Shown here piece by piece: positions 32,223 through 62,821 of a stretch of DNA of 64,000 nucleotides (positions within the stretch are counted from its first letter, which is position 1; each line of letters starts with the position of its first letter). The notes under the pieces were generated by a model that was not told where the DNA came from, did no database searches, and saw only the letters and a program-made list of their open reading frames with translations. This stretch comes from Botryllus schlosseri (lineage: Eukaryota). The DNA lies in assembly GCA_051294905.1 (NCBI GenBank), contig CM119371.1:5520001-5584000 (forward strand). Reading direction: 5' to 3'. Made by a program: the position numbers and the translations under genes.

Positions 32223-33112
32223 TAGGGCAATTTCTTTTGACCTAAAAAATCTAAATTTTGACCCAAAAAAACGGAAAATTTTGACCTAAAAAATCTAAAT
32301 TTTGACCTAAAAAAACTGAAATTTGACCAAATTTTGACCTCACGTATGCAAATTAGGTGTTTTCGCATATAATGTTAAAAATGTACTACTTATCTTCATT
32401 TCTGGTTGGAACTGTTTGTCCTTACAAAGTAGATTGGCCTGAAAAAACGTTTTTGGCTCAAAATCTGACAGATTTTTACATGAAAAAGTAGTATTTTAAC
32501 GAAATCTGGCCCTATGAAGAATTCCAGTAGTTACATTACGTATTCTGGTGGAAATAATTAAAATTTGTTGTAGTACAACGAAAGATCCTTTCCTACATTC
32601 TCGGGTAGAAAGTGTCTGTTCTTACTACGTAGCTTGCCAAGAACGGAGAAAGAACGTTCAACAGCAGCATTTGTTGGCTGACAACACTCAAGTTGTGCGT
32701 ACACTGCTGGTGACAAACCGTGTTGCTTCATTCTGACAATGTTGTCTATGTCACAATTTTGCAGCTTGCGCTTCTTGATATAAGAACCATGCAATGTCCA
32801 AGCAGTCTTGCTTCAGCTAGGATATTGCGGTACGTTGACCATAAAACCATGTCACTATTTGTTTCATTTGACCATTTATGATTCACAATGAGCAGACGAT
32901 GGTCCGTTTACCACGGTAGGCCTATTAAGTAGGCTACAAGCTGTAAAATATCAAATGATAAGTTCACCGACAGCGCAAAATCTACGATACAAGCGAAATG
33001 CAGAGGTCAAAAAATGTTTGACTTTGTAAACAATTTTGACAAATTTTGACCTAACGCTACAATTTTGACCTAATTTTGACTTTTTTTGACATGTCAAAAA
33101 AAAATTGCCCTA
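32223..33112 (-). mobile_element. Non-autonomous hAT element (TAGGGC family), copy 2
   Basis: TAGGGCAATTT...AAATTGCCCTA; exact TSD CAAATCAC. ORF 32558-32794(-) has CQPTNAAVERSFSVLGKLRSKNRHFLPEN, resembling the hAT C-terminal dimerisation motif. Confidence 0.92.
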
Positions 33113-35095
33113 CAAATCACTGTAAAGCAGGGATGTTGAACCCCATTGCATTCCAACTTTTCGATCAATCAAATAACAGAAATGATAAAGCAGTCAGCAC
33201 TGCTACTCAAGTAGAAGTATAAATAATGACATAAATGTCTACTAGAATATAAGTAGCGATGCCTGAATTAATAAAAATGAAGTTTTCGAAAACAGAAAAC
33301 TACGAAGTAGAAATGGGAGTAGTTTTCACCTGACCTTGAAATCGCTTCTTCAACTTGTAATTGAGTAGAAATGTGTGAAGTTACTTCTACTTGAGTGATA
33401 ACTCTGACTGTTTTGAGCACCACTGAGAATGACAATGTAATCCTATCATGCAGGACCACACCACTGATCCTGTGTCCTCTGATTGCTGCCGTTACTGCTA
33501 CAAAAATACCGATACAACCGTAATCGGGGCACGCGCCCACGATACGCAGATTGTATCTTGGAAAGACTCATGTCTGAAGACTCTACTTTAGATGAATTTT
33601 CATGACACGCTTGATACACGGAGCAATACATTTCTGTTCGCAAATGGAATCGCTTCAAGCTGTTCAACTGATTCTTTTTTGAGCTGAGGGTGAATCAATT
33701 AATGCATAACATAAATGTTTTGTTCGTAGCCATATTACAATTCTGTAGCGCGTGGATGTTATGTAATAGACTTAGTGTAAATTGACTTCGAATTGTTGTG
33801 TCTTGTATATCAATAGCAGCTTTCGCAGGGAATACTTTCTCTTGTAAAAAGACTTGATTGTATTCATCCAAAGAGATCGTGTGTCGGATTGAATTTGTGA
33901 CGTAGGCTTTGTGTTTGACCTTGTTTTTTTGGCGTGCAGGGCTGGTCAAACGTGGCATGACCTCGCTATCCGTTTTAAGATCTCGAGGTACATTTCCACA
34001 GAATTACGAGTAGAACTAGCAATCTTGAAGACATCTCATTAGGCAAGCACATAATGAAAGATCTTAAAAGTACTGTAGTTTCAAAAAGCTGATATGGCTG
34101 AGCTTTCATTTATGAGCAGTTCGGTCTGCAGTGTCTATTTTTGAAATCGCAACTCGCAAGATGGATCTTCGCGGAAGACGAAAAATTTCAAATAGCTGCG
34201 AGATATATTCAGTTACCGTGGTACAGGTCGTGTTTCGCCCAGTTGTCCTGATAATTTTATTTTAAAAATACTTTGTACTTGTCAAGATACCAAGTGCGTC
34301 AAATAAGTGGTGTTGCTGGAAAACTGTTTAGTAGTAGTCTATTATACAAGGTCACTTGAGTAAGTAGCGTAACTGCCCAAAAGGATAAGTACTTTGATAC
34401 TGACAACCTCTGGCCGTAGGATAAATATTGAGGAAGTTTAATATTTCGAGTCAAAGTCTCCATCATTCACCAACGCTGACTATGCCACCGTTTCAAAATG
34501 ATAATGGTGAACAACTGGTGTCATAGTTATAGCCCACTTTTGGCGTTGACTGAGAGAGGGATTCATTTCGTCAAGCGATGAGGCCAACACACATATACAT
34601 GTTCGTTTCTAGTTGCTCAAATGTATATCAGCTACGAAATATGGGAGATTACATCTGAATTTCAAACAACGGGTATTTGAGTTTGAAATAAAGAGTGGTT
34701 CCAAAACCCTAAAATCTCGGCTACGCGAGCGTTAGACGTGATTACTTTGAGCACGACAGAGCAGGGGTTATTAAAGTATGGGTCATGAAGGGTATAATTT
34801 TGGGTCATGACTGTTCAAGTGATAATAACGTATGCAATATTTGTCGAATTTTTGGCGCTTCGCGCGATATCCTATGGTTGATTTGTGCACATCCGAGGTC
34901 GCGGTATTTGGTATGGGTACATAGAAGTGTCGCTACTACAGTGTGGTTTGATAATGAAGATAAGATCGGTAACACGACTCACGCCCAACGACGATACATG
35001 TTTTTTTAGTTGTTCTGCAACAAAATTTTCAATAAAATACTCCTTTTTTAATATATGCATAGATAACTGGTAGCGCTCGCAACCTACATTTAATC

Positions 35096-37506: not shown

Positions 37507-38910
37507 TTACGGTACATCACAATAATGAATTTTGGTGCCAGCATGCACCGCCATATGATGATTGAGGTTGCCCTTAAGAGTAAATGCCTTCCCAAATATA
37601 TCACAACCATGATTTTTGATGCAAACATGCATATCCATATGTTGCTTGAGGTGCCTCTTTCTAGTAAATGCTTTCCCACATATATCACAAACATGATTTC
37701 TGATACCAGCATGCATATCCATATGAAGCTTGAGGGTACCCTTCTCAGTGAATGCTTTCCCACATATATCACAAATATGATTTTTTATTCCAGTATGTAT
37801 ATTCATATGACGATTGAGGCAACTCTTACGAGTGAATGCCTTCCCACATATATCGCAAACATGATTTTTGATGCCAGCATGCTTATCCATATGAAGTTTC
37901 AAGAAACCTTTCTCAGTGAATGCTTTACCACATATAGCGCATTTATGATTTTTAATTCCAGCATGCTTATCCATATGCAAATTGAGGGTACCTCTCCGAG
38001 TGAATGCTTTACCACATATATCACAAACATGATTTCTGATGCCGGCATGCATTTCCATATGAAGCTTGAGGTGACTCTTACGAGTGAATGCTTTACCACA
38101 TACCTCACATTCACTGTTGTGTATACCAGCATGCACATCCATATGAAGCTTGAGGGTACCCTTCTGAGTGAATGCTTTACCACATACATCACATTCATGA
38201 TTTTTTGTTCCAGTATGCATATGTATATGACGCTTGAGGGTACCCTTCTCAGTGAATGCTTTACCACATATAGCACATTTATGATTTTTGATGCCAGCAT
38301 GCATATCCATATGAAGCTTGAGGTGATTCTTACGTATGAATGCTTTACCACATATAGCACATGTATGATTTTTGATGCCAGCATGCATATCCATATGACT
38401 CTTGAGGTGATTCTTACGTATGAATGCTTTACCACATATAGCACATGTATGATTTTTGATGCCAGCATGCATATCCATATGACTCTTGAGGTAAGGCTTT
38501 TTAGTGAATGATTTCCCACATACATCACATTCATGATTATTGATGCCAGTATCCGTATCCATATGACGCTTGAGGTGACCCTTCCTAGTGAATGCTTCTC
38601 CATGTAAATCACATTCACGATTGTTTATTCCAGCATGCACATCCATATGACGCTCGAGGGTACCCTTCTGAGTGAATGATTTACCACATATATCAGATTC
38701 AACATTTTTGATGCCAGCATTCATATTTATATGTTGCTTGAGGTTACTATTCCCAGTAAATGCTTTCCAATATATATCCAATTGGCGTTCTTTCAAGTCG
38801 TGATCAATAGTTGATACTGGATCCAAATCATGCTTTTCTTTATGACACTAGGGAAAAGACTCACCGAGTTTCAGCATTTCAGCATATAAAATTGGTTCGC
38901 TTATCAACAT
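37507..38910 (-). CDS. Tandem C2H2 zinc-finger exon (11 intact, 4 degenerate, 1 truncated finger)
   Basis: 28-aa periodic CxxCGKAFTxKxxLKxHMDxH repeats with AGIKNH linkers. Candidate acceptors at 38911 (TGCAG) or 38848 (TTTTCCCTAG). Upstream exons not identified. Confidence 0.9.
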
Positions 38911-39230
38911 CTGCAATGCATGAAAGAGTGGAACTATTTTAAACAAAGAGCATTATAAGATTGTAGACGGAGCAATCACCATGACTTCATCAATGATAGT
39001 GTAAAAATCATTATATTACATTGTAATGTAGTCTTATTGTTTAATGTAGGCGGATATCGTCAAGAGCAGTGATTCCCAACCGCGGCCCCCAGCTAGCTTT
39101 CTTGCGGCCCCCACAAAAATATTGAGAAATCTATTTATGAAAAAAATTATATTTATAAAATACTCTTGCTTGGATTGGAGTCTGGAGTTTTCAATTAGGA
39201 TTGCAGGAAATTTGTAAGTAGACTGCTAAA

Positions 39231-40377
39231 CGGATGATTTTGACCTAAAAAATCTAAATTTTGACTTTTTTGACCTAAAAAAACTGAAATTTGACCAAAT
39301 TTTGACCTCACGTATGCAAATTAGGTGTTTTCGCACATAATATCAAAATTGTACTGCTTATCTTCATTTCTGGTTGGAACTGTCTGTCCTTACAAAGTAG
39401 ATTGGCCTGAAAGAACGTTTTTGGCTCAAAAACTGACACATTTTTACATGAAAAAACTAGTATTTTAACGAAATCTTGCCCTATGAAGAATTGCAGTAGT
39501 TACATTACGTATTATGGTGGAATAATTAAAACTTGTTTTAGTACAACGAAAGATACTTTCCTACATTCTCGTGTAGAAAGTGTTTGTTTTGTTTGTTTGT
39601 TTTGTGGTATTCATGGTTTGTCAACTACTATGGTCATTTACACCAGGCCGATATTCTTCATTATTTTCCGTAACTGCCAACATATAGCACGGTCCACCTC
39701 TAGGATTTTTTGTAAGACACCGCTTACGCGGATGAGGTGGCGAGGCGGAGCCTAGGTGAACCTCCAACACTTAGCTATCGGAATTATGAAGTCGACCTCG
39801 GTCGGAATCGAACCCACACCCATTGGTGTTGCAGCCGCAGATTATACCACTGCGCTATCTAGGGTAGAAAGTGTCTGTTTTACTAAGCATAGCTTGCCAT
39901 GAATGGAGAAAGAACGTTCAGCAGCAGCAGTTGTTAGCTGACAACACTGAAGTTGTGTGCACACTGCTTGCTGGCGATGCACCGTGTTGCTTCATTCTGA
40001 CAATGTTGTCTATATCACAATTTTTCAGCTTGCGCTTCTTGATGTAAGAACCATGCAATGCCCAAGCAGTCTTGCTTCAGTTAGGATATTGCGGTACGTT
40101 GACCATAAAACCATGTCACTATTTGTTTCATTTGACCGTTTATGATTCACAATGAGCAGACGATGGGCCGTTTACAACGGTAGGCCTATCTAGTATAGGC
40201 TACAGGCTGTAAATTATCAAATGATAAGTTCACGGACAGCGCAAAATCTACGATACAAACGAAATGTTGAGGTCAAAAAATGTCTGATTTTGTAAACAAT
40301 TTTGACAAATTTTGACCTAACGCTACAATTTGACCTAATTTTGACTTTTTTTGACATGTCAAAAAAAAATCGCCCTA
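39231..40377 (-). mobile_element. Non-autonomous hAT element (TAGGGC family), copy 3, left end damaged
   Basis: Collinear with 32223-33112; right end ATCGCCCTA; flanks CTGCTAAA/CTGCTAAG. Confidence 0.85.
39584..39863 (-). mobile_element. tRNA-derived SINE
   Basis: Minus-strand head AGATAGCGCAGTGGTATAATCTGCGGCTGCAACACCAATGGGTGTGGGTTCGATTCCGACC (A/B boxes), (AAAC)n tail and TSD GTAGAAAGTGT. Absent from the paralogous hAT copies. Confidence 0.85.
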
Positions 40378-42306
40378 CTGCTAAGATTACGTCACTGCTG
40401 TTTCAATGCAATGTGCCCTAACTTTCCAGTTGAACGGGCAGTACTAATAGATATAGGTATAAGTAGTGAAGGTGGTATCGTTTCGTGCAGGCCAATCAAA
40501 TTACGCCACGTCGCTTAATTGCCACGCCTACATTGCCACATCATCCGCCCATTGCCTCACCTATAGCACACCTATTGCCACATCATCCATCCATTGCTAT
40601 ATCATCGCTGCATTGATTGCCGCATCTTGATAGTTTTCTCAGATATTGTATTATGTGTATTTAGGACTAATATCATCCGTCCATATTTTTTAAACTTGAT
40701 TTTATGTGTACAAGTTACGGTTTCTGTAGTTTCCACATTTTACGACTTATGATTGCTGCGTCAAAACTTACCTTGGCTAGAATCGACAGATTTTCTATTA
40801 TGTGTATTTAGGACTATGTCTTTAAATTCCTATTCAGATTATACATAAATACGAAAACTATGATGTCTATGTAAGGTTATATTCTCCGGATAATATTATT
40901 AATATCAAAATTCTACACATCATCACTAATTACTTAATATAAAATGCGATTTTGAGCGCTGCGACTTGATAATATGAACCCCTACGCTTCTGATGCATGA
41001 TTTTTTGTGATAAGGACCTAGGTAACATTCAGAGTCTGCAACGATTGTTTGGATATACATTATAGCAATACCCCACTAAACTATAGGCGGTTATATTACT
41101 CTATTGGTCAGAGATAACTCATCCGACCATAATTTTAAACTTGATTTTATGTATACAAGTTACTGTCTCTGCAGCCTCCACATTTTACGACTTATTTTCA
41201 TTAGACGCAGGCAAGCGATTCTCCAGTTCCGAGCTACAGAAACAAATCACTCGCATGTGCGCGTTCCGAATAGTATTGTAGAATTTTCTAAAGTCGTAAC
41301 AGCTTAGTAGCATATACGCTAATCCCAAGGTGAAAAATAATCGAACGAACTATAGCCGTAGGCGTGCGATTCGCAGGGCTTTATTTATACAAACTCTATC
41401 GATGCCTGTACGCGAACCCCTGCGTTAAAACGATTAGGTCTAATTAACACGTTCTGAAGCCGAAAATTTAGTCAACATCATTGAGATAGCCATGATTTGA
41501 AGATGGTGATCTAGTGTGACAATAGCACTCGCCAAGGTTAGACAAACATAACCTTAAACTACTCTCTACTTCACAAAATATAAAGTTATAAAAGTAAGCA
41601 GATTTCTATGAAAACCCGTGAAATAGAAGTAAAAGTAGCCTAGAAACATAACTACTTAATGAAAAATCGTGATTCTTGAAGTGACCACATTTCATACGAT
41701 TCAGTCCTTTTCATGTCACTAGAATAAGGGTGATTAAACCAACAGTGAAACGCCGCCGGCGTCTTATAACGTAATAATGTAAGCTGCGTCGGGTGCTGCT
41801 ATAATGTTAGGAGCGAATATAGTAGAAAGTCCACGTCTGGACACCTGTAAGCAAGTGCGCATACTACCGTAGTAAACGCATAACAGAATTCATGCAAAAG
41901 TCTATATTGCTTTGTGATGATTTTGATGTTGTTCCATACCGATTGGGAAGATAGGACTCCTAATTTCCTTATCCCGGAACGTAGCAAGAAAAATCGTATA
42001 AATTTTGTAAAGTAGATAGAAAACTACACTATTCCGATGCAGTAAAGACTCTTACACGCTGGATTTTGTGCAGTATATACTAATTTTACATTGCGGAGTA
42101 TTCCATAAACGTTAATCCAGTGACCCTCCTTCTATTTTCAATCACGATCCGCTTATTATTCTAGGCTTCGAACCCCACACCCAGTACGTTTTATGGGGAT
42201 TAATATTTTTAGATTAAATATAGGGTATCGAGACTTCGTGAAACTTACTCGGAAATAGTTATTTCTACCCTAATTTAATAGATTTCTCAGATATCGTAGC
42301 AACGGA

Positions 42307-42389
42307 ACTGGCTTCAGCGAGCGGTTAAGGCGTTGGACTTAAGTTTCAATGAACAAGTGTTCACATAGGTTCGAATCCCACACCCACTA
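42307..42389 (+). pseudogene. tRNA-Leu(UAA)-like sequence, copy 1
   Basis: GAGCGGTTAAGGCGTTGGACTTAAGTTTCAATGAACAAGTGTTCACATAGGTTCGAATCCCAC: Leu-type D loop, TAA anticodon, long variable arm and GTTCGAATC T-loop; acceptor and T stems mismatched. Confidence 0.8.
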
Positions 42390-43534
42390 CGTTTACGAGA
42401 ATTAATATTTTTAGATTCAAATTTAGCGTATTGAGTACTTTTTCTGCATTTTTCAGTGCATTAGAGACGTTTACACTATTGATTTCGTGAGCTTTACTTA
42501 AGTTTTATAAATTAACGTAAAAGTAGCCATTTCCGAGTAAGTAAAACGTTCGTATTGTAGGTTCATTTCTGCTTAATACTATAATTATCATGGAGTTGAA
42601 GCAGTCCAATATCAAAAACACCCGAAAGTATTTGTTGCATATAGCTAAAAACCTAATTGAGTACTCTGAAGAAGTACAAGTAGCACAGTTTGTGGTATTT
42701 CTATGACATCGAAATTTAGCTAACCAGAACTTATACTTGAGTACTCCGAAATGTACAAGTACTTTACCTTTACACGACGTTTCTGTAAAATGAATACTGA
42801 TTTTATTAAAAAATAAAAAAGCACGAAAAATTACATTTTATCCCAAACCATCAGAATACTAAAGTAGCTTATCGCGTATATGGACCTAATACTAAAGTGT
42901 TTATGATTTCAGTTCGCTTCAACTTCATGACATTTTCAGTATTAAACAGAAGTATAGGCCTAGAATGCTAACTTTCTTCGTAAATTGCTACTTCTGCCTT
43001 AATTTAACGGATTTATCTGAGATCATTGCTTTACTTAATCTCTCCAAAATGTGCATTATACTAGTACGTCACCATCGAATCCCTCTGGCTATAACTACCC
43101 GATAGTATAATTGAGCCAAATACTCGAGTACTAATTTTAAAGTAGCTTAGGTATCTAAATGAACCAACGGTCAGTAAACCATTTCGAAGTGCAAGTACAG
43201 GAATATCATAGTTCGTGAACCGTGCTCAAATTTTGTAAAGTAGATAGAAAACTACACTATTCCGATGCAGTAAAGACTCTTACACGCTGGATTTTGTGCA
43301 GTATATACTAATTTTACATTGCGGAGTATTCTATAAACGTTAATCCAGTGATCCTCCTTCTATTTTCAATCACGATCCGCTTATTATTCTAGGCTTCGAA
43401 CCCCACACCCAGTACGTTTTATGGGGATTAATATTTTTAGATTAAATATAGCGTATCGAGACTTCGTGAAACTTACTCGGAAATAGTTATTTCTACCCTA
43501 ATTTAATAGATTTCTCAGATATCGTAGCAACGGA

Positions 43535-43617
43535 ACTGGCTTCAGCGAGCGGTTAAGGCGTTGGACTTAAGTTTCAATGAACAAGTGTTCACATAGGTTC
43601 GAATCCCACACCCACTA
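43535..43617 (+). pseudogene. tRNA-Leu(UAA)-like sequence, copy 2
   Basis: Same sequence in the second unit of the 1228-bp duplication. Confidence 0.8.
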
Positions 43618-45431
43618 CGTTTACGAGAATTAATATTTTTAGATTCAAATTTAGCGTATTGAGTACTTTTTCTGCCTTTTTCAGCGCATTAGAGACGTTT
43701 ACACTATTGATTTCGTGAGCTTTACTTAAGTTTTATAAATTAACGTGAAAGTAGCCATTTCCGAGTAAGTAAAACGTTCGTATTGTAGGTTCATTTCTGC
43801 TTAATACTATAATTATCATGGAGTTGAAGCAGTCCAATATCAAAAACACCCGAAAGTATTTGTTGCATATAGCTAAAAACCTAATTGAGTACTCTGAAGA
43901 AGTACAAGTAGCACAGTTTGTGGTATTTCTATGACATCGAAATTTAGCTAACCAGAACTTATACTTGACTACTCCGAAATGTACAAGTACTTTACCTTTA
44001 CACGACGTTTCTGTAAAATGAATACTGATTTTATTAAAAAATAAAAAAGCACGAAAAATTACATTTTATCCCAAACCATCATAATACTAAAGTAGCTTAT
44101 CGCGTATATGGACCTAATACTAAAGTGTTTATGATTTCAGTTCGCTTCAACTTCATGACATTTTCAGTATTAAACAGAAGTATAGCCCTAGAATGCTAAC
44201 TTTCTTCGTAAATTGCTACTTCTGCCTTAATTTAACGGATTTATCTGAGATCATTGCTTTACTTAATCTCTCCAAAATGTGCATTATACTAGTACGTCAC
44301 CATCGAATCCCTCTGGCTATAACTACCCGATAGTATAATTGAGCCAAATACTCGAGTACTAATTTTAAAGTAGCTTAGGTATCTAAATGAACCGACGATC
44401 AGTAAACCATTTCGAAGTGCAAGTACAGGAATATCATAGTTCTTGAACCGTGCTCAATGCTCAATAGACCGTTTTTGCTATTTTTCATCGCCATAAGTCA
44501 TTCTGGACCGCGTAAACGCATTGTACGTTATAGATGAAACTTATGCAAATCCCCGGAACGCAACAAGAAAAATCGTATGAATTTGTAAACTACTTATTCA
44601 TGACATAATAATAATTCTACTTGTACACATTTTCACATTTTATAACACTTTAAGTAGTACTTGAAAGTTTTGTCAAGTTAACAGGTTAAAAACTTATACT
44701 TGAGCACTACGAAATGTACAAGTACTTTACCTTTACACGACGTTTTGTAAAATGAATACTAATTAAAAAATAAAAAATAAAAAAGACCGAAAAATTACAT
44801 GTTATCCCGGAACGCAACAAGAAAAATCGTAGGAATTTGTAAACTACTTATTCGGTAAACTACTCTTTACTTCACAAAACAAAGTTACAAAAGTAAGCAG
44901 ATTTATATGAAAACCCGTTAAATAGAAGTAAAAGTAATAACAATGCATCATACCAAATTTGATCGCAATTTCATGATGCAATACCTTTAAAACTAACGCA
45001 GTTCTCTATACACTTTTGCGTAAATCTGTGTTTCGCTAGCGTAGCACGTACCTATACATAGTAAGCTTCAATAACGGAATTACCATGCTAATAATCAAAT
45101 CCCCACCCTGAAACTCGGTACGCGGTTGTAGGACATTATGAAAATACAACATACCAAATTTCATCAGACATTTCATGATGTAACACCTTTAAAACCAACG
45201 CAGTTCTATACCGACTTTTGGCTAAATCTGTTATCCATAGCGCAGCACGTACCTATACATCAAGGGTCGGCAACCTACGGCCCGCGGGCCGGATCCGGCC
45301 CGCCAAGCGAAATCGTCCGGCCCGCGACATAATAATTCGTTATCACAAGAATGCGGCCCGCCGTTTCATAATGAGTTTCAATCTGCAGTGCAGCACTGCA
45401 TGAAAAAAATGCGGCATTGCTACGATATAAT

Positions 45432-46022
45432 TATAGAAATTAAACATGAAACGGCAACGATCGATTTTGCAGCTTCGTTCCGCTTCGCTGAGGCTGCAGT
45501 GGAGAACTGTTTTGCGTAAGCGACCGTAGGATTTCTGGCAATCCAAAAGCTATCTTCCCGAGCGCAGAAATTACTGAATCTGGTCTTGATCGAAAGCTAC
45601 TGTAGCGCCGATTCCGAAAATATAAATTAAAATATTGATCAGGCTTTGATCCACCTAGAATCTGTCCTGCAAGTCTGAAATGTCGGCATCGTTCAGAACA
45701 ATCGGGTAACCGCAACACAATGGCCATAAAAATGACCCGTTGCGACACTCCGATTGTTCGAACAATGCCGATATTTCAGACTTGGAGGACGGATTATTGG
45801 TGGATCAGTGCCTGATCATTATTTTAATTTATATTTTCGGAATCGGTGCAACAGTAGCTTTCGATCAAGACCAGATTCAATAATTTCTTCGCTAGGGAAG
45901 ATAGTTTTGGGATTGCCAGAAATCCTACAGTCGCTTACGCAAAACAGTTCTCCACTGCAGCCTCGGTGAGGCGGAACGAAGCTGCAAAATCGGTCGTTGC
46001 CGTTCCATGTTTAATTTCTATA
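45432..46022. mobile_element. ~590-bp palindromic (foldback) MITE
   Basis: Arms ~45432-45706 and ~45750-46022 are reverse complements around a ~45-bp spacer; flanked by ATATAAT on both sides. Confidence 0.85.
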
Positions 46023-46286
46023 ATATAATAGTAGCCTACATCGTATTAGTCTATTGCTACGCCATAAAACGAAGGTGGTTGAAGTAGGAGATGGAGATGA
46101 ACTAGACTGGAACAGTGCTTATCAAACGGGTGTATCTCGCAACCGAAGGTGTTCCATACTTTTTTTAAAGGGTTTACCACTCTAACGGGGTGTGACAATA
46201 AAGGTGTTCTACCATTGCTTCAAAAACGCTTGGAACATCTCTGACGCAATGACGGAATCTCAAACTGTTCAATTATAGATAACTAG

Positions 46287-46803
46287 CAGTGATGAGCGGA
46301 TAGTGCTTTTCGAGACTCCGAATCCCTCCGACAACTTCAGTGTCTGAGGGAAACTCCCTCCGACTCCGAAGACCTCAATCCCAGACTCCGAGATACTCCG
46401 ATGAATCTCGTCAAGTATCCGAAACAGTGGCAAGCATGGTACACTTGGTAATGTGTTTTACTAAATTAATCTGATAATATGGCTGGTCTCATAGTATTCT
46501 CCACTCTCCAGTCCCCAATTGCAGTGCAGATGGCTGATTTTTATACATTTGGCAATCATTGTTGCATGTTACCAGTCATATTACAACTTCACAAGGTGTC
46601 AACTGTCTGTGTTTTGGTTTGTAATCATAATCAAGAGTGTATTCTGGTCAGAGCTATCCAAAGATATCGGAGACAAAAGTTACAATACTCCGAAATTCTC
46701 CGAAAAAATATCAGTAGTAAACTCCGACTCCGCTCCGACTGTCACAAAATCGGCAAAACTCCGCTCCGAATCCAATCCGACTCCGCTCCGATGCTCATCA
46801 CTG
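46287..46803. mobile_element. hAT MITE with ACTCCG subterminal repeats
   Basis: CAGTGATGAGC...GCTCATCACTG; exact TSD ATAACTAG. Confidence 0.92.
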
Positions 46804-49800
46804 ATAACTAGCCTCCGTATGTTAGTTAGCCTATCTATAGTTTGATTTTCCAGAAGGCATTGTGTGCCGAGACAAAAAACCTGAATAGTGTTTTAACCAC
46901 AATGGTGAAAACTGTTAATATGATTTTTGTCTCAATAACTGAATCAGTTACGCCAGATATTACTAGAAGCAGAGAATCAATATGGCGATGTCATGCAGGC
47001 CTATATCTGTCATTTTCGCTCATTGAGTCGAGCAGCTATGCTTACACGAGTGTATGAACTGAGATATGAAATAGCAACTTTCCTCGAAAACGCAAATATC
47101 GCCGACTCATAATCTTGTAATCGAAAATGGGTATCTCATCTTGCTTTCCTGGTACATTTAACGTCACATCTGAACAAATTGAATTTGCAACTCCAGGAGG
47201 AAAACAACTAAATACATGAGATGTTGAGGCACATTCAAAACAAATCTGTAGAAAATTATGCTCACTTTCCTATATTGGAGGAGAGAAAACCTAGTACCAA
47301 CACTACATTTGTAACTGTGATACGAAATTTAACTACTGAATATTCACCCGCTTTTCCGACATTTCTTCTCTACAAAATGAATTCTGACTATTCAGTACTC
47401 TGTTTAATGCGGACGCCAATACCAATGCCTGAAGATTTCAAATGGGCCTTTCTGAAATGCGATGCAGTTGAATTGAATGACAAATTTCATACAAAGAGCA
47501 TATCGCTGCATGACTTTGACAAAGAGTACGTTCTTGAAATTGGTCTTTATCCCAGCTTGACCAGCAATGCAAAAGAAATTGCATCGAATTTTGGAAGCAC
47601 GTACGCATGTGAACAATAGTTGTGAACAATGAAATTCACAAAGAGCAAGCTAAGATCACGTATTTCTGACGTCCATTTTGAATAGGGTCTGATTCTTGTT
47701 TCATCTGACTTATTACCAGAAGTTGAAAACCTTTCAGAAAGCAAGCTGCGCCAATTGTCACAATTATTCTGTGTTGTTGAAGTGTAAATACATGTGTCTT
47801 CTGATTGGTATGATTGAGATTGCAGCACTGTAGGATAACATACCGAAGTAAGCGTAAAATATAGTACTAAGAAAAATTCCGGCCCGCCAAAAAGTTCTAC
47901 ACCCGAAATTTGGCCCGCGACTAGCAAAAGGTTGCCGACCCCTGCTATACATAGTCAACTTTAAAACGGAATTACCATGTTAATAATCGGCCCCCCACCT
48001 TGAAACTCGGTACGCAGTTGTAAGACATTATGACAATGTAGCATGTCAAATTTTGTTACGCATTTCATGATTGAACAACTTGAAAGCTAACGCAGTTCTA
48101 TACCGACATTTGCGTGAAACTGTTTTGCGGGAGTTTAGCGCATACCTATGCGTAGTCAACTTTAATGACGGAATTACAGATGTAATTAGGTTTCAACACT
48201 TTTACAACGATTCTTCTTGCTTCCTATAACATCGCACTCGAAGCCCTCGTTATTAGGCTATGATCTCAGCCTGAGCTATGTCTTGAAGCCTACGGGACTT
48301 TGCAAATTGTTTCGATTTATTCTATACCCGTTTTAATGTAAGGAAGCCCATTTCACTCAATGTATCGATGCCTACAGTATAGAGTATACTCTACAAAATT
48401 TTCTGATTAATTCTCCCTATGTTAATTTACCATAAGACAGACAATTTGACTCCTAAAGTCCGAAATACTTGTTCGCTTGAGCTAAGCCGCAGCGCCTGGA
48501 GTGGAATTTTATAGTTCTTGTAAAAAGTTGTTTATACACAATATATGTTTAAGGTAAGTCCTACGAATTCATGATTTCGTCCGAGTTTGTATTTTAGTAA
48601 TATATACTAATACCGCGTTTGTAACTTGTGCAAGTAGGCCTACAGGAATATCATAGGTAAAGTCTCTGTCTTGCATTTAGTTGCCGGCTCTGAAAGCAAG
48701 CAAAGTTTGTGGTATTTGCGCAACATCGAAATTTGTACACTTCACGCGGGGCCTACGATACTTACGGCCTAATATGGCACATTACACTTGCTGGATATGA
48801 GGCCGACACTCCCAACCAGACATCACGACTGACTCAATGATTGCTTGCGATCTCACTTCTCGATACCAGACGCCTCGCCATACAAGTCTAATAAAGTATT
48901 ATAACAGACAAAATTAGTTCTTTCAGATGAAACAACCCAATTAAGAGCCAAGTGACAGCGTCGCAATGTATTTAATCGTTCGGGTAGACTTGAATCGTGA
49001 TCCGGATCTCGTAACATAGTAAAATCGAGGTATGTAGTTTAATTACTCACTCACTACTCTATATGTTGGTGGTGGTCATACCCTGCAAACTTTTTTTGCT
49101 GCGAACGTAGTGTTTCACCTTACATCAGTTGGTTCAATGTATGTACCGGGTTGTGAAAACTGTCGCTGTTTTGACTATGAGTCACAATCAATACTAAATA
49201 CGAGAATTCGTTACTCGTCGAAACGCCGCAGTCAGGCATCGTTAACAGCGATTCCGTGTATGGCAATCTTGAGTTCAATTGCGGTTTTTGTGATGTTAAC
49301 CAAGCGGCTGTGTTTCTGCGGTGTGAAGACTGAATTCGTGTTGTTTCCCTGCAAGAGTGCGATGTCTATTTCACACCTAGAGCAATTATAAAACGCATCT
49401 TCGAAACTTTTGGTCTAGTTCATCCGCTTCCATTTCGAAACGGACCATCACGACAAGACTCTAACCCACCACATCCGAGGTTTCAGTTGATCATATCGAA
49501 GAATATCATGTCCATCCGTGTTACCACCCACATCTTGGTTGAATGGCCGATGATAAGCCAAATTTAATAACGGAATTACCATGCTTAACATTGAATCCCA
49601 ACTCTAAACTTGATACGTAGTTGTAGGACATTATGGCAATGCACCATGCTAGATTTCATCACACATCTAATGATGGAACACCTTTGAAACTATCGCAGCC
49701 GAATACCGACTTTTACGCATATCTGTTTTTCGTGAACACAGCATATACCCATACATAGTCAATTTTAATAACAGAATTAGTATGCTAAATATTAAATTCT

Positions 49801-52800
49801 CACCTTGAACGTTGGTACGCAGTTGTAGGACATAATAAGAATGCACCATACCAAATTTTGTCAGACATTTCATGATGTAACACCTTTAAAACCAACGCAG
49901 TTCTATACAGACTTTTGGCTAAGTCTGTTTTTCCGTAGCGTAGCACGTACCTACGCATATAGTCAACTTTAATAACGGAATTATCATGTTAATAATCGAC
50001 TCCCAACTTTGAAACTCGCTACACCGTTGTAAGACATTATGACAATGCACCATGTCAAATTTTGTTACGCATTTCATGATTGAACAACTTTGAAACTAAT
50101 CCAGTTCCATGCCGACTTTTACGGGGGCGTAGCACGTACCTATGCATACTCAACTTTAATAACGGAATTACCGAGCTTAACATTGAATGCGCAACTTGAA
50201 GATTGGTTCACAGGTGTAGGACATTATGACAATGGAACATACCACTGCGCTAACTTTCAGAATTGTTAAGTATAGTACTCGCACTTTGTGAGAATACCCA
50301 TGTAGGTTTTTTGCCTACATGCACCAAATACTATCAAGTCCTTATGATATTGGAGTACATCAACTTCATGATAGCTAGAGTATTGAACAGAAATAGACCT
50401 AGAGTACTAACGTTTTACTTACTCGGAAATGTCTACTTCTACCTTATTTTAAAGGAAACCTCGTTCGAAGCGAAATTTATGTGGTTTTTGGATAATATCC
50501 AAGATGTAGGCTCACTTTGAAGGGTACTTCCTAAAACTCAAATATTGCGCAAAAGTACAATTAGGGATCTAAAAGTAACTAATATAGATGGTTATTTTCG
50601 TAGATTACTTACCCTCTACTCAAGAGGTTTTTCAGGTGGAACTACCTACTTTTAGGACTGTGTATGTCAAAGTAGTTTGAGCTTACGTTTATATCACCTT
50701 GACAAGTGACATTATCACACATGAAAATGATATTATCGCGTAATACCAGAAGTTAACACACGTCAATGTGTTTCGGAATTCACTAGAAATTGGTTACTAA
50801 GAGAAGTATATTCTTGTGTACACAATAGCGGAGAGAATATTTAAAATGTAGTAAGCAGGCCGATGGGTATTCATTGAGTTGTATAAGCATAAAAAACATT
50901 CCCGCGCGCTCCTAAACCCTGCCTAACCCTACCACCTAATCCTAAGACGCGCGCGGGAATGTTTTTTATCGATAGAGTTTGTATAAATAAAGCCCTGCGA
51001 ATCGCACGCCTACGGCTATAGTTCGTTCGATTATTTTTCACCTTGGGATTAGCGTATATGCTACTAAGCTGTTACGACTTTAGAAAATTCTACAATACTA
51101 TTCGGAACGCGCACATGCGAGTGATTTGTTTCTGTAGCTCGGAACTGGAGAATCGCTTGCCTGCGTCTAATGAAAATAAGTCGTAAAATGTGGAGGCTGC
51201 AGAGACAGTAACTTGTATACATAAAATCAAGTTTAACATTATGGTCGGATGAGTTATCTCTGACCAATAGAGTAATATAACCGCCTATAGTTTAGTGGGG
51301 TATTGCTATAATGTATATCCAAACAATCGTTGCAGACTCTGAATGTTACCTAGGTCCTTATCACAAAAAATCATGCATCAGAAGCGTAGGGGTTCATATT
51401 ATCAAGTCGCAGCGCTCAAAATCGCATTTTATATTAAGTAATTAGTGATGATGTGTAGAATTTTGATATTAATAATATTATCCGGAGAATATAACCTTAC
51501 ATAGACATCATAGTTTTCGAATTTATGTATAATCTGAATAGGAATTTAAATACATAGTCCTAAATACACATAATAGAAAATCTGTCGATTCTAGCCAAGG
51601 TAAGTTTTGACGCAGCAATCATAAGTCGTAAAATGTGGAAACTACAGAAACCGTAACTTGTACACATAAAATCAAGTTTAAAAAATATGGACGGATGATA
51701 TTAGTCCTAAATACACATAATACAATATCTGAGAAAAGTATCAAGATGCGGCAATCAATGCAGCGATGATATAGCAATGGATGGATGATGTGGCAATAGG
51801 TGTGCTATAGGTGCGGCAATGGGCGGATGATGTGGCAATGTAGGCGTGGCAATTAAGCGACGTGGCGTAATTTGATTGGCCTGCACGAAACGATACCACC
51901 TTCACTACTGGTATGGCTATGGGTATTGAACAGACCGTAACTGCTGCACCCCAAGCCCCCCAATTGGAGGGAGCGAGATCGAAGGGGGACCAAAATTATT
52001 TAGTGAATTAGCATAAATTAGAGATTTTTCGCGCTGCGCGCGATTTCAAATCTCCGAGTACTTAATTACTGGGTACTCTTCGACCAAGATAAAATACGCA
52101 AGATTTATAGAAATGGGCATATCGGCGTTGGCCATTACCGCGCCACGACGCACGAAGACATATAAAGTTTTAGGCCAGCATGTAACGATTGTAACATGCG
52201 ACTCCAAGAAGTGTACCAGAACGATCGGCAGCGACAAAACCTTGGCCGAAAGGACTGCCCTTACGCTGACCGAACACTTTGTTATGTATATTCAAGATAC
52301 ATATAGGTATAATTGACCATAGGCGCCTAAATGACTGGCGCAAAATGTTCCTGTCCTGGCAATCTGAACGTCACGAGACAAATAGGCTACCATCCCGCAG
52401 GGAATAATTATATGCCAGTGAAGAACTACCAATTTGAAATCGTGTGCATCTTTTAGTTTAGTATGTTTGGGCGATTCTATATTTCTTGATATAGCAGACT
52501 GGAGGTCACGAAATAACAAATAACATCATGTAACGGAGTCGTACCTACGGGTCCGCCCGTCCGAATATGATTAATTATTATTTACGTGCCCTACAGTTTC
52601 TAAGACACCTCACTCAGCTCTACCGGTAAATCGGTAATTGATAGCAATATATATATGCAATTCCTGATCTTATTGACCTATTTTATTTTGAATCATCGAA
52701 AATTTTCGCGCTCCATGCTGGCTCACTAAACGTGGATCCTGATTTCATGGCAGAAGCGAACAACGGCATGGGGGGTCGGTTTATCACTCTATGGGAGCTC

Positions 52801-54874
52801 AAGACCTAAGTGTTTTGGGGGCCTGACGAAGTGCTGTTTCGTTCCTGTTAACGGGTAATAGCCCGAAGATGTTTAATTATTATTGAGTGACACACTACCT
52901 TTTCAAGCACAACTCACTCGGCTCAACTGGTCAATCTGATTACCTGAGCAGAGAGAGGTTAAAAATTGATAGCAATACATATGAAATTCCCGATTATATT
53001 GACCGATTCCATCATGAATTATAGAAATTTTTCGCGCTTGGCGCGATTAGTCGAGAGGAACTGCCTAAAACGGACATCCGAGTTAGATGATAAATAGTGT
53101 TAAACAGCCATCTAGCTTGAGGGGGTCTGGGGGCTTCGAAGTTCTGTTGATCACCCTATGGGAGACCCAAGAGAAACTTATTTTTATGGGGGTTGCTGAC
53201 GAATTGCCGTTACGGCCCTGGGTATTGAAAACTAATTTACGGATAGATGTGCAACAAGTGACTCACCATTGAATACGGCGAGATGCGTACTGCTTAACCG
53301 GCAAAAAGCAGCATCATTGGTAGTCCTATAGCTCGCGACCCAAGCGCCCGAATAATTTGATATGTCGGTGTTTATCGAAAGCAAGTGTCGCACTGATTCC
53401 AAAACTGCGAATTGAAATCTCGCCAGGGCAATAAAACTACTCCGAGATAGTCAGCAAAGGTTGATTGTTCTGAACAACGGGAGCGCGGCAACACAATGAA
53501 TGGCCAATGGCGTCAAGCGAGTGATCGGAAAAATGCCAATTTTCATATTTTGGTGACTATTTTGGGTTCCTTTCATTGCCTAGGTAGGCTATTCAAGCGG
53601 CCCCGGCCGTACTCTTAAATTCTAAAATTGGCCCTGCCACCGTAAAAGGTTGGGAACCACTGGTCAAGAGAACTATTGTTATATCAAGTTTAGATTCTGA
53701 ATCAATTATCAAGATTCGAGATGCAGGTCTTCTTGTTTAATGCAGTCGGATATCAGCAATGGAATAATCAGTATATCCAGTTTTGATCAATTAAAACGAT
53801 GAGAAGATAGGTATGTTGCATTTGCTTCCACTAGCAGTTTAAAGCATATCGATGTTAAGCATTAAATGCCAAAATAGAAAATAGCTAATATCATCCATCA
53901 TTGGCCGATGAATTAATCTTGATATAACTCAGGGATGCATTAATTCGACTTCAGCATTATAAAATTTATTTTCCTCGATATTGCTTTTTCACCCTCCCGA
54001 AACAATCCGCCAATTACCATTTTTCCAAATTAGACTCGAATAGAATTGAAGCTATGATAAACAGGTCTTTCCAAATTAGATTACAATTATCTGAATCGGC
54101 GAAAACTTGAAATTGAATCAAGTTCCTTTCATTATTAGAGGAACGAAACATTTCGCTGCACAAGTTGGATTGGCATTAGATTACTGACATTTTGCTCCAA
54201 TTAGTCTAATTTAACTAGATCTCGTTGTCCAGGTCTGCTAACAGCTATAGACATTTACCAACATACTTGAGTCAGGGATATTTTCTGTTTGGTCCTACGT
54301 CTGGTGATCAGACAAATTCAAACATTGGTAATGTGATGCATGTTACGATACAGTGATGACATTTAAAATTAAAATAATATTAGGACGATTGCCGAAGTTG
54401 AAGACTTTCACAACAAGTTTAAGAACAATTCAAATTCATTTAGCGTTGGAGAATCCATCTTATAAGGGTATTTACAGGCCAAAATCTATGAAGTACTGGT
54501 GTATATGGTAGATACGACACATTGATTAGGTAACGATCATTGCTCGTAATAAATGCTTTGATGGTAAAGCTCGACTCAATTGATTCTACCTCAAGAAGAT
54601 TTTGCGCCATTGGAATCTTTCACGCTACCCCATGACGAAGAAGCAGTGGTAAAACTAGATCATATACACTGGACTATAGCAGTGCTAGAACATTTTCAAC
54701 TTTTTTTCAGATTAGACTAGAATTAGAATTATAGCTAAAGATTTTTTTACAAATTAAATTGGAATTATCAAATTCGCAACAGTTGCGAAATTAAATTAAA
54801 ATCAACATCATAACTTCTTGGTATTCATGCTCATGAACTGGATCTAACTAAAAACTAAAACTAGATGGGACACT

Positions 54875-56160: not shown

Positions 56161-59100
56161 GTGATGTATCAGACGTGCAATGAGATAGATTTTTGTAGTT
56201 TATTAGACTGGACGAAAATCCTGGGGCCAGAATGCAAGTTTGCGCAAGGGTTCGCCATGATGCATGGTATTCAAATTCATCTTTAACACAACTGACCAAA
56301 TCTCCATCACTATGATCTGTGGCTACCAAATAGCTGTCTTCATTTGTCCATTTGTCCATTTGTTCATTTGCTTTTTATTACATTTTGACAAGAATTGGTT
56401 TCAGATGATATTAAAAGACCCAAGATGACTAATGTGGTGCTTAAAGTTGGTGTGTTACGACTTAGTTTCCCTAAAGCTCACCAAATTTTCCAGCACATAA
56501 AAAAACTCAGCATCATATTTAGAGCGCAGTGCACATTTCAGACCAACTTTCATCCATATACATTCTGGGTAGTTAAATATACTATTACCCAAAAAGTATA
56601 TTCTATTATCCAACTGCGAAATGTTCAATAACTGCATGCATGGGCATTGGGCAATTGGCATGGTTACTGAGAGGTTTGGCGCCATCCGAAGGTTTAGGAA
56701 CGATATCCATATATTCCGAATCGAGTATCAGGCTGTGGAGGATTTCATTGCACTGTTTAACAAAGCTGTAGGTTGATCATAGTTCACAGACTTCTACCGT
56801 GGAATATATTCGACTGGGATCACTAGATTTAATACACTAATCAGATCCCAGTACTCCATCGTAAAAGCTGCCCTCGATGTCAAAGGACAATCCCAAAGAC
56901 CCAAACCTAGACTTCCGATGTCGACATCACTACCTTTTTAAATCTCGTGAAATTTAGCACCTGCATCGATGAGCTAATTCCAAACAGGATCACAGAAGTT
57001 ACGCCATTTTAAAAATTGACAATTTTCCACTCATTGCGGGTCTGAACAGTACTTTGTTTTATCAATACATTAATCAAGGTGTAGCTGAAATTGAAAGACA
57101 GTTGAGATTTTTCACTTGGATTTCTCGGTAGCTTGTCTGATAGTCTATATGTCAAAGTGACATTTAAGACCTTACCGCGTAGGGTCAAAGGTTAAATTGA
57201 GTGGAAATTTGCTTAATGACCTGGTATGAGTCAAGCATTGCAATATTGCTCAAACACATATCAAAATATAAAAACAAGTAGGTTCTCAAGGGGAATTCGT
57301 TCAAAGCTGTTTAATTTTGGTCCCAAATCTCTGAAGATAATAAATTGCAGTCTCAGTCCCCGTCTCTCTCAAACGCACTGCATTTGTGCGCAAAGTTTGG
57401 AATATGCTAGACCAGGAGGGGGCAAACTACGGTCCGCGGGCCACGTGCGGCCCGAGACAACATCTTGTGCAGCCAGTCAAGGCATTGAATATTTTAATAG
57501 AAATAATGATAATGCGCAGTTCAAATCTGATCACTAGAGAGACTAGTTTAAACTTTTTCTTGAGATATTTCATCATGATAATAAGTGATAACCGTATAAT
57601 ATTGCATTTCGAAACATTTCGCTTGCTAAACATCCAAGAAAATCTAATTGGAAATGAATTAGTTCGTATAACAATTGTGATTTCGGGTTAGAATTCCAAC
57701 TTTTAGTTCTGTACTTGGAAAACTGATTTTGTGCGTGTTATTTAGATTCGTCCTCTCATCAATATGCGCAGTTAGGTGCAAATTGTTCCTAACTTCAGCC
57801 TCAATTTAATCATAATCAGTTGTCTGAATCAATACGAAACGCGGAAAGTTGAAGATGAATGCTTTGTAATGGTTAAAGGATCAACTGATAGGTAGCCTAC
57901 TTCGGTTCCTGCGTCTGAGGTAACACAGTATATATTACTTCATTGACGCGCTGTGAGGTTTGTGACTGGTGAGGCATGGACCCCCCCCCCCCCCCCACAC
58001 ACACACACACACAAACACCCACGCAAAGTACCTGATAAAGAGACCCAATATGTGAATAACAATAAGAGCAGCGGGTATAGGGAGCATTTTCTCTGCGCAG
58101 TGATATCCGTTGCAATTCCACATTCTAAAATATATGTCGTCGGACTGGTCGCTATTGTGCTAAATGGGCAAGTTTAGACGGATATTAATTACTATCTTTT
58201 CAAGTATCGGTATAAATTATCCGAAGCACATGAAAATAGTATCCTTATTTACAGATATTTTTTCAGTAAAAAACACTAGATTTGCCTAATTTCGCAAGAA
58301 AATACACTAGGACACTAGGTCAAGTCAAAATACACCACATCTAGTGTAAAATCACTAGGAGTGGCACCACCGACCGCGAACAACGACAACGCAGGCTATG
58401 TAAGTATAGCTATAACATACCACAAACACAGCTAAAGGCCACAAAAAACGACGATGTAGCCTATGCAAGTAGATATCACATGCCACAATTTAACGGAAAG
58501 TACATAACAGCTACATAAGTAAGGGACTGAATTTGCTCCGCATTACGTATTGGCGGTCGCTACTATATAATTCCTACAGGACTGCTGTATTCCGAAATCC
58601 ATAGGCAGTTTCGCTGTGTTGCGATTGTCCAATTGTTAGCGAATAGTACATGAGTCAGATTAGTTTGTGCCTCACCTGGCTATTGTTTCTCTGCGATCGC
58701 ATTGTTTGTAATAAAACCGAATGTCACCTTCCTTGGCGATTTTTTTTTTTGGGGGGGGGGGGGTTCTGGTGCTCTGACACTATTAATATTTAGATTTTTG
58801 GAATGAGTGTGACGATCAGACATGGGGTGATTACTTCATGAATGTAATCGATTGCGATTACGATTACTTCAGAATCACGCGATTACGATTACGATTACAG
58901 CAAAATCAGGAAGTAGTCGATTACGATTACGATTACATTGGAAAAGTAATCATGATCACTCGCGATTACATTTATTTTGCTTATTCTAAGAACTAAGCTT
59001 ACGAGATATATTGGAAGACAATATAAGGCCTATTGATTTAACAACTTTCTTTATAAATGATGCGTCAGTTGCTTGTTACGTCATAATGTAGCCATTTCCC

Positions 59101-59796
59101 AACAATGTAGGATTTATCGCACCCAACGATTTGCATTCTTGCCAGCTAAGTCCGTAACTGCCGCACCCAAAAATCACCAATAGGGTGGGGAGCGAGCTCT
59201 AAGTGGAATCAAAAATACTTCGTAAACCAACATAAATTATAGAATATTTTCGAGAGATTTAATTAACTTGAAGTTTTTTTCGAGCTTCGCGATTTAAATG
59301 TTTCTAGACTTTTGTGATTCATACCTGTCCCCCTCAAGAAAAAAACATGCATAATTTATGGTAATAGGCATTTGAGAGCCGGTCATTACCGCGTCACGAC
59401 ACACCAAAAGACATATGCAGTTTGGGCCAATATGCGACTCCACGGAGTGTGTTACTAAAGAAAGACTTTTCCGAAACTTAGGGTATTTGTCCATTGTCAA
59501 TATCCGCGCTGGGTGGGCGTGACTAATAGTGCTGTCCTTCCAATCTGAGCCCACAATGCAAATGCCAACCGAGGGCACCCACAGACGAATATAAACATGA
59601 CAATTTGTGTGAAAGTCTCACGAAAGTTTTTTTTTGGTCTGCTATACGTTTGGGCGACTGCAACATCTTTTTATTACTTAAAGGATCGGAGGTCACGATT
59701 TAACAACATACCAGATGGTAATGATTATGAATTACGTCCCCCGGATTTACAAGTAAATCTGACCATCGGGGACTGGAGAGGATCAAAAATGATGAT

Positions 59797-62559: not shown

Positions 62560-62821
62560 TAATACTTATTGTATTGAATTCGTTGTTCTAATCCGAATCC
62601 GAACATCCTAATTAGAGGTCTAATGTACCAAATTATGAGGTTCTATATGAATCAACCGAATTAATGAAATGTCTGAGACAACAGTAAATTATGTTGATGT
62701 CCTCCCTAACAAATGAGCTTGAAGAAGGTAAGTTTACCACAGTAACGCTTTTACTAAAACGTTTTTAAGGTAACATGCTATTAAGCGGTAACCAAACCCA
62801 GAATCAGCATACCAATGACAC

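What the first reader, a model, noticed from the sequence alone, without database searches (positions are those of the whole stretch)
40462..51909. Gene-less Polinton/Maverick-like element with near-identical 942-bp TIRs
Seen: AGTAGT...ACTACT termini, long TIRs with short internal repeats (TTGCCACATCATCC) and a 5/6-matching 6-bp flank duplication. Established: Polintons have 6-bp TSDs and long TIRs starting 5'-AG, often AGTAGT. The interior has no recognisable viral or replication ORF, only repeats and nested TEs. Inference: a recently mobilised non-autonomous parasite of an active Polinton/endogenous virus in this genome.
Basis: partly seen in the sequence, partly recalled or inferred. Interest (0 to 1): 0.7.

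Follow-up and report, generated by a model that had tools for sequence, protein, structure and literature searches.

The report
Gene-less Polinton-ended insertion with nested transposons
This 11.4-kb stretch of animal DNA has the end signature of virus-like Polinton/Maverick transposons but no detectable gene of its own, so it is most likely a hitch-hiker that such an element inserted, a known kind of parasite whose helper and copy number could not be checked here.

Summary
40462-41403 and 50968-51909 are 942-bp inverted repeats (937/942 identical) ending AGTAGT..ACTACT, the commonest vertebrate Maverick end motif, with a 5/6 flank duplication (random rate 0.65%). No other duplication length from 2 to 11 bp fits. 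The interior is a patchwork: a 2.7-kb hAT with perfect 8-bp TSD and decayed transposase, smaller nested elements, a 1.23-kb tandem duplication with a tRNA-Leu-like piece, and old 204-bp repeats. No Polinton gene was found, but the Pfam test was weak: it also missed the hAT remnant. New here: the near-perfect right arm stops exactly at a 77-bp hairpin insertion, and weaker inverted similarity (69-79%) lies further in, as if the ends had been re-copied onto each other. Best reading (0.65): a non-autonomous Polinton derivative inserted by a helper's integrase. Recent mobility, copy number and a helper were not tested: no genome was held and no reads were laid. Earlier scan notes (unchecked) report many gene-less, fully palindromic Polinton-ended elements and gene-bearing Mavericks elsewhere in this genome. 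My sequence look-ups found no look-alike of this element among them. Gene-depleted, cargo-carrying polintons are already in print. Interest 0.35.

The parts
40456..40461 (.). left copy of the 6-bp flank duplication (GGTATA)
   Evidence: 5/6 match to the right copy
40462..41403 (+). left terminal inverted repeat, 942 bp, starts AGTAGT; holds a 19-nt tandem repeat (40531-40606) and a 78-nt internal repeat (40673-40750 vs 41119-41195, 88%)
41511..41656 (+). module A: decayed inverted match to 50587-50723 (69-74%) at nearly the mirror offset (1049 nt from the left end; 1186 from the right end, 1107 without the hairpin); part of it recurs directly at 44853-44936 (92-94%)
   Evidence: E 5e-9; 0 of 200 shuffles reach the score
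42000..44457 (.). head-to-tail duplication of a 1228-1229-bp unit, 12 differences (1.0%); could be real or an assembly duplication of two alleles
42307..42390 (+). tRNA-Leu(TAA)-like sequence, probably a pseudogene or SINE head; second copy 43535-43618
   Evidence: ARAGORN; no Rfam tRNA match at E<=1; does not fold better than shuffles, z -0.29
42508..42686 (+). module D: inverted match to 50272-50451 (78-79%), but also to 42849-43006 (73%) and to 22389-22572 outside the element (69-75%), so it may be an old dispersed repeat
44911..48180 (+). array of 204-bp units split by the hAT insertion (44911-45260 and 47945-48180); the two pieces align end to end on the second array
45261..47944 (+). nested hAT transposon, 2684 bp, TIRs 13 of the first 14 nt matching, perfect 8-bp TSD CTATACAT
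45419..46035 (.). fold-back palindrome inside the hAT, arms 87-90% alike
46287..46803 (.). 517-bp insertion inside the hAT with 11-bp TIRs and perfect 8-bp TSD ATAACTAG (hAT-like MITE, by TSD length)
46945..47772 (+). decayed C-terminal half of a hAT transposase, 5 stops in 276 codons
   Evidence: best E 3e-45, 1172 hits; 6 of 8 tested relatives carry Dimer_Tnp_hAT
49038..49567 (+). short overlapping open frames (117, 50 and 77 aa) with no detected relatives; probably not genes
49556..50244 (+). second array of 204-bp units, copies 73-76% alike
50891..50967 (.). 77-bp hairpin insertion with perfect 19-bp inverted ends and AT on both sides, abutting the inner edge of the right TIR
50968..51909 (-). 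right terminal inverted repeat, 942 bp, ends ACTACT
51910..51915 (.). right copy of the 6-bp flank duplication (GGTATG)

Best explanation
The 11,448-bp segment is one insertion made by a Polinton/Maverick-type integrase, and it was already gene-less when it was inserted: a non-autonomous derivative that keeps only the cis-acting ends. Shown: the ends, the TIR pair, the 6-bp near-duplication, the nested elements and the absence of long frames. Inferred from the published model (excision of a single strand whose TIRs pair into a panhandle, protein-primed copying by pPolB, insertion by the retroviral-like integrase): polymerase and integrase came in trans from a gene-bearing Polinton with compatible ends. 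Also inferred: the outer 942 bp were made alike by copying one end onto the other, during panhandle replication or by gene conversion, and that copying stopped at the 77-bp hairpin. The inner sequence, which is not corrected, drifted and collected insertions. Whether each nested element came before or after the last move is not known.
For: End motif, TIR length and duplication length fit the published Maverick criteria (PMC8097293). The motif and the duplication are each rare by chance (3e-4 per position; 0.0065). Decay in place at 0.5% TIR divergence should leave kilobase-long frames, yet the longest outside the hAT is 117 aa, reached by 28 of 200 shuffles. Pfam found 0 families in 18 read-through frames and PHROGs 0 in 12. 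The interior repeats are much older than the TIR match (204-bp units 73-76%, modules A and D 69-79%). The perfect arm ends at the hairpin; a random placement would do so with p about 0.001 (computed after the fact). Polintons that lost polB, carry TE cargo and apparently stayed mobile are described (10.1101/2025.02.07.637071). Panhandles are a proposed homology-restoring mechanism of protein-primed replicons (PMC11886824).
Against: No second copy, no helper sharing the TIR and no empty site were seen. The duplication is imperfect, whereas the vertebrate survey started from perfect ones; it could also be read as 5 bp plus one extra base. Pfam missed the hAT remnant that phmmer found at E 3e-45, so a decayed Polinton gene could have been missed too, and no Polinton protein was on hand for tblastn. 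Module D also occurs outside the element, and neither the first 107 nt inside the left TIR nor the stretch between A and D aligns better than shuffles (88 and 48 of 200 reach the score), so the decayed inner arm rests mainly on module A. The panhandle paper itself says direct evidence for such structures is lacking.
Confidence: 0.65

Rival explanations
1. An old Polinton that integrated whole and decayed in place: its genes were deleted and replaced by later insertions, while gene conversion between the two linked inverted repeats kept the ends alike. It never moved as a gene-less unit.
For: 96% of vertebrate Maverick loci are degraded (PMC8097293). The flank duplication has a mismatch that is unlikely (p 0.03) at the TIR's divergence. 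Conversion is proposed to restore TIR symmetry, over more than 1,100 bases in one maize Mu element (PMC10401008). The nested insertions are layered.
Against: No trace of any core gene in about 5 kb of non-nested interior. A 5/6 duplication survives, which limits the age.
Confidence: 0.17
2. A composite: two Polinton TIRs, from separate or broken elements, came to flank ordinary repeat-rich host DNA and moved it once, or an inversion between Polinton copies produced the arrangement.
For: The interior looks like host repeat DNA: tRNA-like piece, 204-bp arrays, module D with a relative outside the element. Polinton TIRs and partial copies are linked to rearrangements in C. elegans (10.1101/2024.01.15.575659).
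Against: Module A sits at nearly mirror offsets on both sides and has no hit outside the element in the window, which suggests an older element architecture. The duplication at the outer ends marks a single integration.
Confidence: 0.1
3. A non-autonomous member of another long-TIR cut-and-paste group (Mutator/Foldback, Galileo, IS3EU/GingerRoot, Ginger).
For: Long, internally repetitive TIRs are typical of these groups (recalled; a Mutator-like element with 3.35-kb TIRs lies in this window). An 870-bp, 96.7% TIR pair on a nematode MULE is described (10.1101/2022.07.12.499685).
Against: 7-, 8- and 9-bp duplications match 1, 1 and 0 bases. IS3EU/GingerRoot ends are TA..TA. Ginger ends are TGT with 4-5-bp TSDs (PMC2836005).
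Confidence: 0.05
4. An assembly artefact that placed one repeat twice in inverted orientation.
For: All 5 TIR differences are transversions, which could be consensus errors. The 1% tandem duplication could be two alleles joined.
Against: A mis-join would not be expected to end on AGTAGT with a 5/6 flank duplication.
Confidence: 0.03

Closest known systems
Autonomous Polintons/Mavericks (vertebrate survey PMC8097293; anole Polinton PMC3014272; nematode set 10.1101/2023.08.22.554363)
   Same: 5'-(AGT)2//(ACT)2-3' ends, TIR within 46-1,447 bp, 6-bp (5-8 in the nematode paper) duplication
   Different: No pPolB, integrase, ATPase, protease or capsid gene detected; 11.4 kb, below the 12.7-24.6 kb of intact vertebrate elements; duplication imperfect
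Gene-depleted polintons with TE cargo in butterflies (10.1101/2025.02.07.637071, passages)
   Same: TIR-flanked, lack polB, carry nested transposons, need a helper
   Different: Those keep other polinton genes and were seen as polymorphic, multi-copy variants; this one has no detected polinton gene and only one copy was seen
Repbase non-autonomous Polinton families such as Polinton-1N1_DR (name seen in PMC9341505; that N marks a non-autonomous family is recalled)
   Same: Same category: Polinton ends without the coding core
   Different: Their sequences and structure were not seen here, so no direct comparison was made
Palindromic gene-less Polinton-ended families noted by earlier scan agents in this genome (unchecked notes)
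   Same: Polinton-type ends, no core genes, 13-18 kb, arms kept near-identical
   Different: Those are reported as about 93% palindromic; here only 16% of the length is perfect TIR, and three sequence look-ups found no look-alike
Maize Mu homomorphs (PMC10401008, passages)
   Same: Left and right TIRs re-made near-identical, sometimes far into the interior
   Different: Different superfamily, ends and TSD; mechanism proposed there is conversion or recombination, not protein-primed replication

Membership tests
Polinton/Maverick (autonomous) | (AGT)2//(ACT)2 or (AG)3//(CT)3 end motif | tested here: met
   motif from PMC8097293 section 7
Polinton/Maverick (autonomous) | long TIRs (46-1,447 bp in vertebrates) | tested here: met
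   942 bp, 99.5%
Polinton/Maverick (autonomous) | 6-bp target site duplication | tested here: inconclusive
   5 of 6, random rate 0.65%; best of lengths 2-11; one locus only
Polinton/Maverick (autonomous) | protein-primed PolB and RVE integrase genes | tested here: not met
   no frame over 117 aa outside the hAT; 0 Pfam families in 18 read-through frames
Polinton/Maverick (autonomous) | packaging ATPase, protease, major and minor capsid genes | tested here: not met
   decayed remnants could be missed
Non-autonomous Polinton derivative | Polinton-type ends without intact core genes | tested here: met
Non-autonomous Polinton derivative | ends shared with a gene-bearing Polinton of the same genome | not testable with these tools
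   no genome held; no TIR relative in viral or metagenome contigs
Non-autonomous Polinton derivative | several copies with the same gene-less interior at different sites | not testable with these tools
   no genome held; no reads laid; look-ups in earlier notes empty
IS3EU/GingerRoot | TA..TA (sometimes TG..CA) ends with 6-bp TSD | tested here: not met
   ends are AG..CT; criteria from PMC10045372
Ginger1/Ginger2 | TGTNR ends, 4-5-bp TSD | tested here: not met
   criteria from PMC2836005
Mutator/Foldback and P/Galileo | 8-9-bp or 7-8-bp TSD (lengths recalled) | tested here: not met
   7 bp 1/7, 8 bp 1/8, 9 bp 0/9
hAT (nested element 45261-47944) | short TIRs, 8-bp TSD, transposase with hAT dimerisation domain | tested here: met
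   6 of 8 relatives scanned (of 150 listed) carry PF05699

The most novel reading that the evidence does not exclude
This is an old-lineage, wholly gene-less Polinton satellite whose two-tier ends record how Polinton ends are copy-corrected. Its arms were once longer, as in the palindromic families that earlier scan notes report from this genome; the inner parts drifted to 69-79% while the outer 942 bp were re-copied, and a 77-bp hairpin set the limit of that copying. Across a family, such boundaries would be sequence evidence for the panhandle intermediate of Polinton replication, for which a 2025 paper on the related PRD1/adenovirus model says direct evidence is lacking, and the element would ferry host transposons as cargo.
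Probability: 0.2. Interest if true: 0.62.

Novelty: new member of a known kind. Interest (0 to 1): 0.35.

Why it matters
Non-autonomous elements are the rule in transposon biology, and gene-depleted polintons with cargo are in print, so one more copy changes little. It would matter more if the family is multi-copy: a wholly gene-less Polinton rider shows that the ends alone suffice for trans-mobilisation, and the point where end identity stops could be used to test how Polinton ends are kept alike. It also warns that TIR identity may not date such insertions.

Tried and rejected
Whole-genome search: no genome is held for this window. Public runs: 24 rows listed, 20 hold part of 44460-53500 (12 studies; 1 row holds half or more of the words and may be the source sample); no RNA holder listed; no reads were laid, so I cannot say which part is shared and draw nothing from it on copy number, other species or expression. 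Collection scans: terminal 24-mer, 0 matches in viral and 0 in metagenome contigs; 18-mer 21 loci and 16-mer 33 loci, of which 0 of 54 extend into the TIR (5-15 of the next 41-42 bases; no BLAST hit at E<=1e-3), so chance matches. Empty site in a paralogous repeat: the right flank matches two repeats in the window (0 of 300 shuffles reach the score) but the 81-nt left flank does not (114 and 171 of 300): rejected. A small central gene: frames at 49038-49567 gave nothing in Pfam, the 5.8-billion protein set (2 candidates, none at E<=0.01, lengths 70-224 only), viral contigs or the Atlas (best 0.82, a lead at most). Functional tRNA cargo: not supported. Rfam's only match in 39000-53000 was SNORD93 at E 0.82, far below its threshold. 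A hairpin at the TIR tip: the first 239 nt fold worse than 197 of 200 shuffles. A whole-element decayed palindrome: not supported beyond modules A and D. Read-through Pfam scans covered 40462-43230, 44850-47950 and 47945-50970; PHROGs covered the first and last of these; the rest is the second duplication copy, the second TIR and about 0.4 kb seen only in the ORF lists.
Full report
Observation. The two arms, 40462-41403 and 50968-51909, are 942 nt long and differ at 5 positions, all transversions. They begin AGTAGT and end ACTACT. The terminal 18-mer occurs only at these two places in the window, against 0.03 expected. The flanks read GGTATA and GGTATG. Random position pairs reach 5 of 6 in 0.65% of 200,000 draws, and no other length from 2 to 11 matches more than half its bases. 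AGTAGT occupies 40 of 128,000 strand positions. The 19-nt tandem repeat in each arm is real. The host is an animal-like eukaryote, judged from a C2H2 zinc-finger array and the transposon content of the window; I did not try to name it.

Interior. Of 11,448 bp, 1,884 are TIR, 2,684 a nested hAT, 1,229 the second copy of a tandem duplication, about 1,275 two arrays of a 204-bp unit and 77 a hairpin. The hAT (45261-47944) has a perfect 8-bp duplication and splits a 204-bp unit cleanly. It holds a palindrome, a 517-bp insertion with its own perfect 8-bp duplication, and the C-terminal half of a transposase with 5 stops in 276 codons. That remnant has 1,172 relatives at E<=0.001, best 3e-45; of 8 long relatives that I scanned out of 150 listed, 6 carry the hAT dimerisation domain and 6 the Spin-doc zinc finger. 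The duplicated unit (12 differences) carries a tRNA-Leu(TAA)-like piece that ARAGORN calls but Rfam does not and that folds no better than shuffles. The 204-bp copies are 73-76% alike. Several modules of 45-180 nt recur inside the element in both orientations.

Is it gene-less? Outside the hAT the longest stop-free frames are 110 and 117 aa, and 28 of 200 shuffles reach 117. Eighteen read-through frames gave 0 Pfam families and 12 gave 0 PHROGs. The short frames at 49038-49567 have no detected relatives. The limit of this result is plain: Pfam also missed the hAT remnant, and no Polinton protein was on hand for a direct search. Intact core genes are excluded by frame length; old remnants are not.

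The right arm's inner edge abuts a 77-bp hairpin with perfect 19-bp inverted ends and AT on both sides, seen once in the window. A random placement would touch a TIR edge with p about 0.001, computed after the fact. Further in, inverted similarity returns at lower identity. Module A (41511-41656 against 50587-50723) is 69-74% identical, E 5e-9, and no shuffle of 200 reaches its score; it lies 1,049 nt from the left end and 1,107 from the right end once the hairpin is discounted. Module D is 78-79% identical and in the same order, but it has further copies, one outside the element. Against a simple decayed arm, the first 107 nt inside the left TIR and the stretch between A and D do not align better than shuffles (88 and 48 of 200). 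I went looking for this after reading earlier scan notes on palindromic Polinton-ended families. The cautious reading is that the ends were once alike over a longer stretch and that the outer 942 bp were re-copied later. If so, TIR identity dates the last copying, not necessarily the insertion. The mismatch in the flank duplication, with a 3% chance at the TIR's divergence, points the same way or reflects imprecise integration.

What could not be shown. No genome is held and no reads were laid, so copy number, polymorphism, a helper and expression are open. No TIR relative exists in the viral or metagenome contigs scanned: 0 matches for the 24-mer, and 0 of 54 shorter matches extend. No empty site was found in paralogous repeats. 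Earlier scan notes, which I could not check, report hundreds of 13-18-kb palindromic gene-less Polinton-ended elements and some 54-60 gene-bearing Maverick loci in this genome. They make a helper plausible but are leads only. Three look-ups with this element's TIR and interior found no look-alike in any indexed window, so it may belong to another family; I had no positive control for that index.

How it most likely works. Shown: Polinton-type ends, one integration mark, no intact core gene. Inferred from the published model, which I read as summarised for casposons (PMC4046053, passages) and not in the original 2006 paper: a strand loops out through its TIRs, is excised, forms a panhandle, is copied by a protein-primed polymerase and is inserted by the integrase. 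An element with only the ends needs both enzymes in trans. Panhandles are also the proposed route by which PRD1 and adenovirus restore homology between their ends, though direct evidence is said to be lacking (PMC11886824, passages). I give this reading 0.65. Decay in place with gene conversion gets 0.17 (PMC8097293; PMC10401008, passages), a composite of two TIRs around host DNA 0.10 (10.1101/2024.01.15.575659, passages), another superfamily 0.05, an artefact 0.03.

Comparison with what is known. The end motif, TIR range and 6-bp duplication are from PMC8097293 (passages; section 7 in full), PMC3014272 (passages) and 10.1101/2023.08.22.554363 (passages). It fails the gene criteria, so it is not an autonomous Polinton; it looks like a dependent of one. 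IS3EU/GingerRoot (PMC10045372, passages) and Ginger (PMC2836005, passages) fail on ends; Mutator and P-type groups fail on duplication length (lengths recalled). Polintons lacking polB, carrying LINE or LTR cargo and apparently still mobile are described in butterflies (10.1101/2025.02.07.637071, passages). The name Polinton-1N1_DR appears in PMC9341505 (one passage); that it denotes a non-autonomous family is recalled. PMC5499653 (passages), PMC6431247 (passages) and 10.1101/2022.07.12.499685 (passages) gave background. Searches (listings) showed no paper describing a wholly gene-less Polinton-ended element of this size or stepwise arm identity in Polintons; one search found only 2 papers with the non-autonomous phrases. 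The library lacks most subscription papers and Repbase reports, and I opened no supplements; those of the vertebrate survey and the butterfly preprint may hold such elements.

Verdict. A real, single observed insertion with Polinton-type ends and no detected core gene: most likely a new member of a known kind, with mobility and helper unproven. The hairpin-bounded, two-tier ends are the one feature worth following up. Interest 0.35; the novel case has probability 0.2 and would deserve 0.62.

Noticed in passing
window 4009-16859: A second large fold-back element: 3.35-kb inverted arms (97%) filled with a 176-bp satellite, around frames at 7263-8858 (weak ZSWIM1-3 RNaseH-like hit, E 0.0017) and 12296-13099. 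Earlier notes call it a Mutator-like element with a Ulp1-type protease.
   Followed up: partly
window 37507-38847 (-): 446-aa open frame made of tandem C2H2 zinc fingers, 84-bp period, about 15 copies.
   Followed up: partly
window 19653-20476, 32269-33113, 39228-40380: Three copies, about 90% alike, of a roughly 0.85-kb dispersed repeat; the copy left of the element has an insertion at about 39589-39857 and ends in a 22-bp palindrome.
   Followed up: no
window 27661-28579, 58813-59725, 51924-52392: Older dispersed repeat (about 75-78%) of which the element's right flank is a partial copy.
   Followed up: partly
window 57409-57477, 62810-62903, 63482-63580: Weak matches to the ends of the nested hAT, suggesting further related hAT elements in the window.
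   Followed up: no
window 25984-26355 (+): 123-aa frame with a partial protein kinase match (PF00069, E 1.4e-06, below the curated cut-off); probably an exon or pseudogene piece.
   Followed up: no
window 42162-42236 and 42366-42440: The 3' part of the tRNA-like sequence is repeated 204 nt upstream (84%), the same period as the unrelated-looking 204-bp arrays; unexplained.
   Followed up: no
window 47407-47616: A 70-aa public protein (P0004) is 93% identical to this part of the hAT remnant, so close relatives of the nested hAT exist in public data.
   Followed up: no
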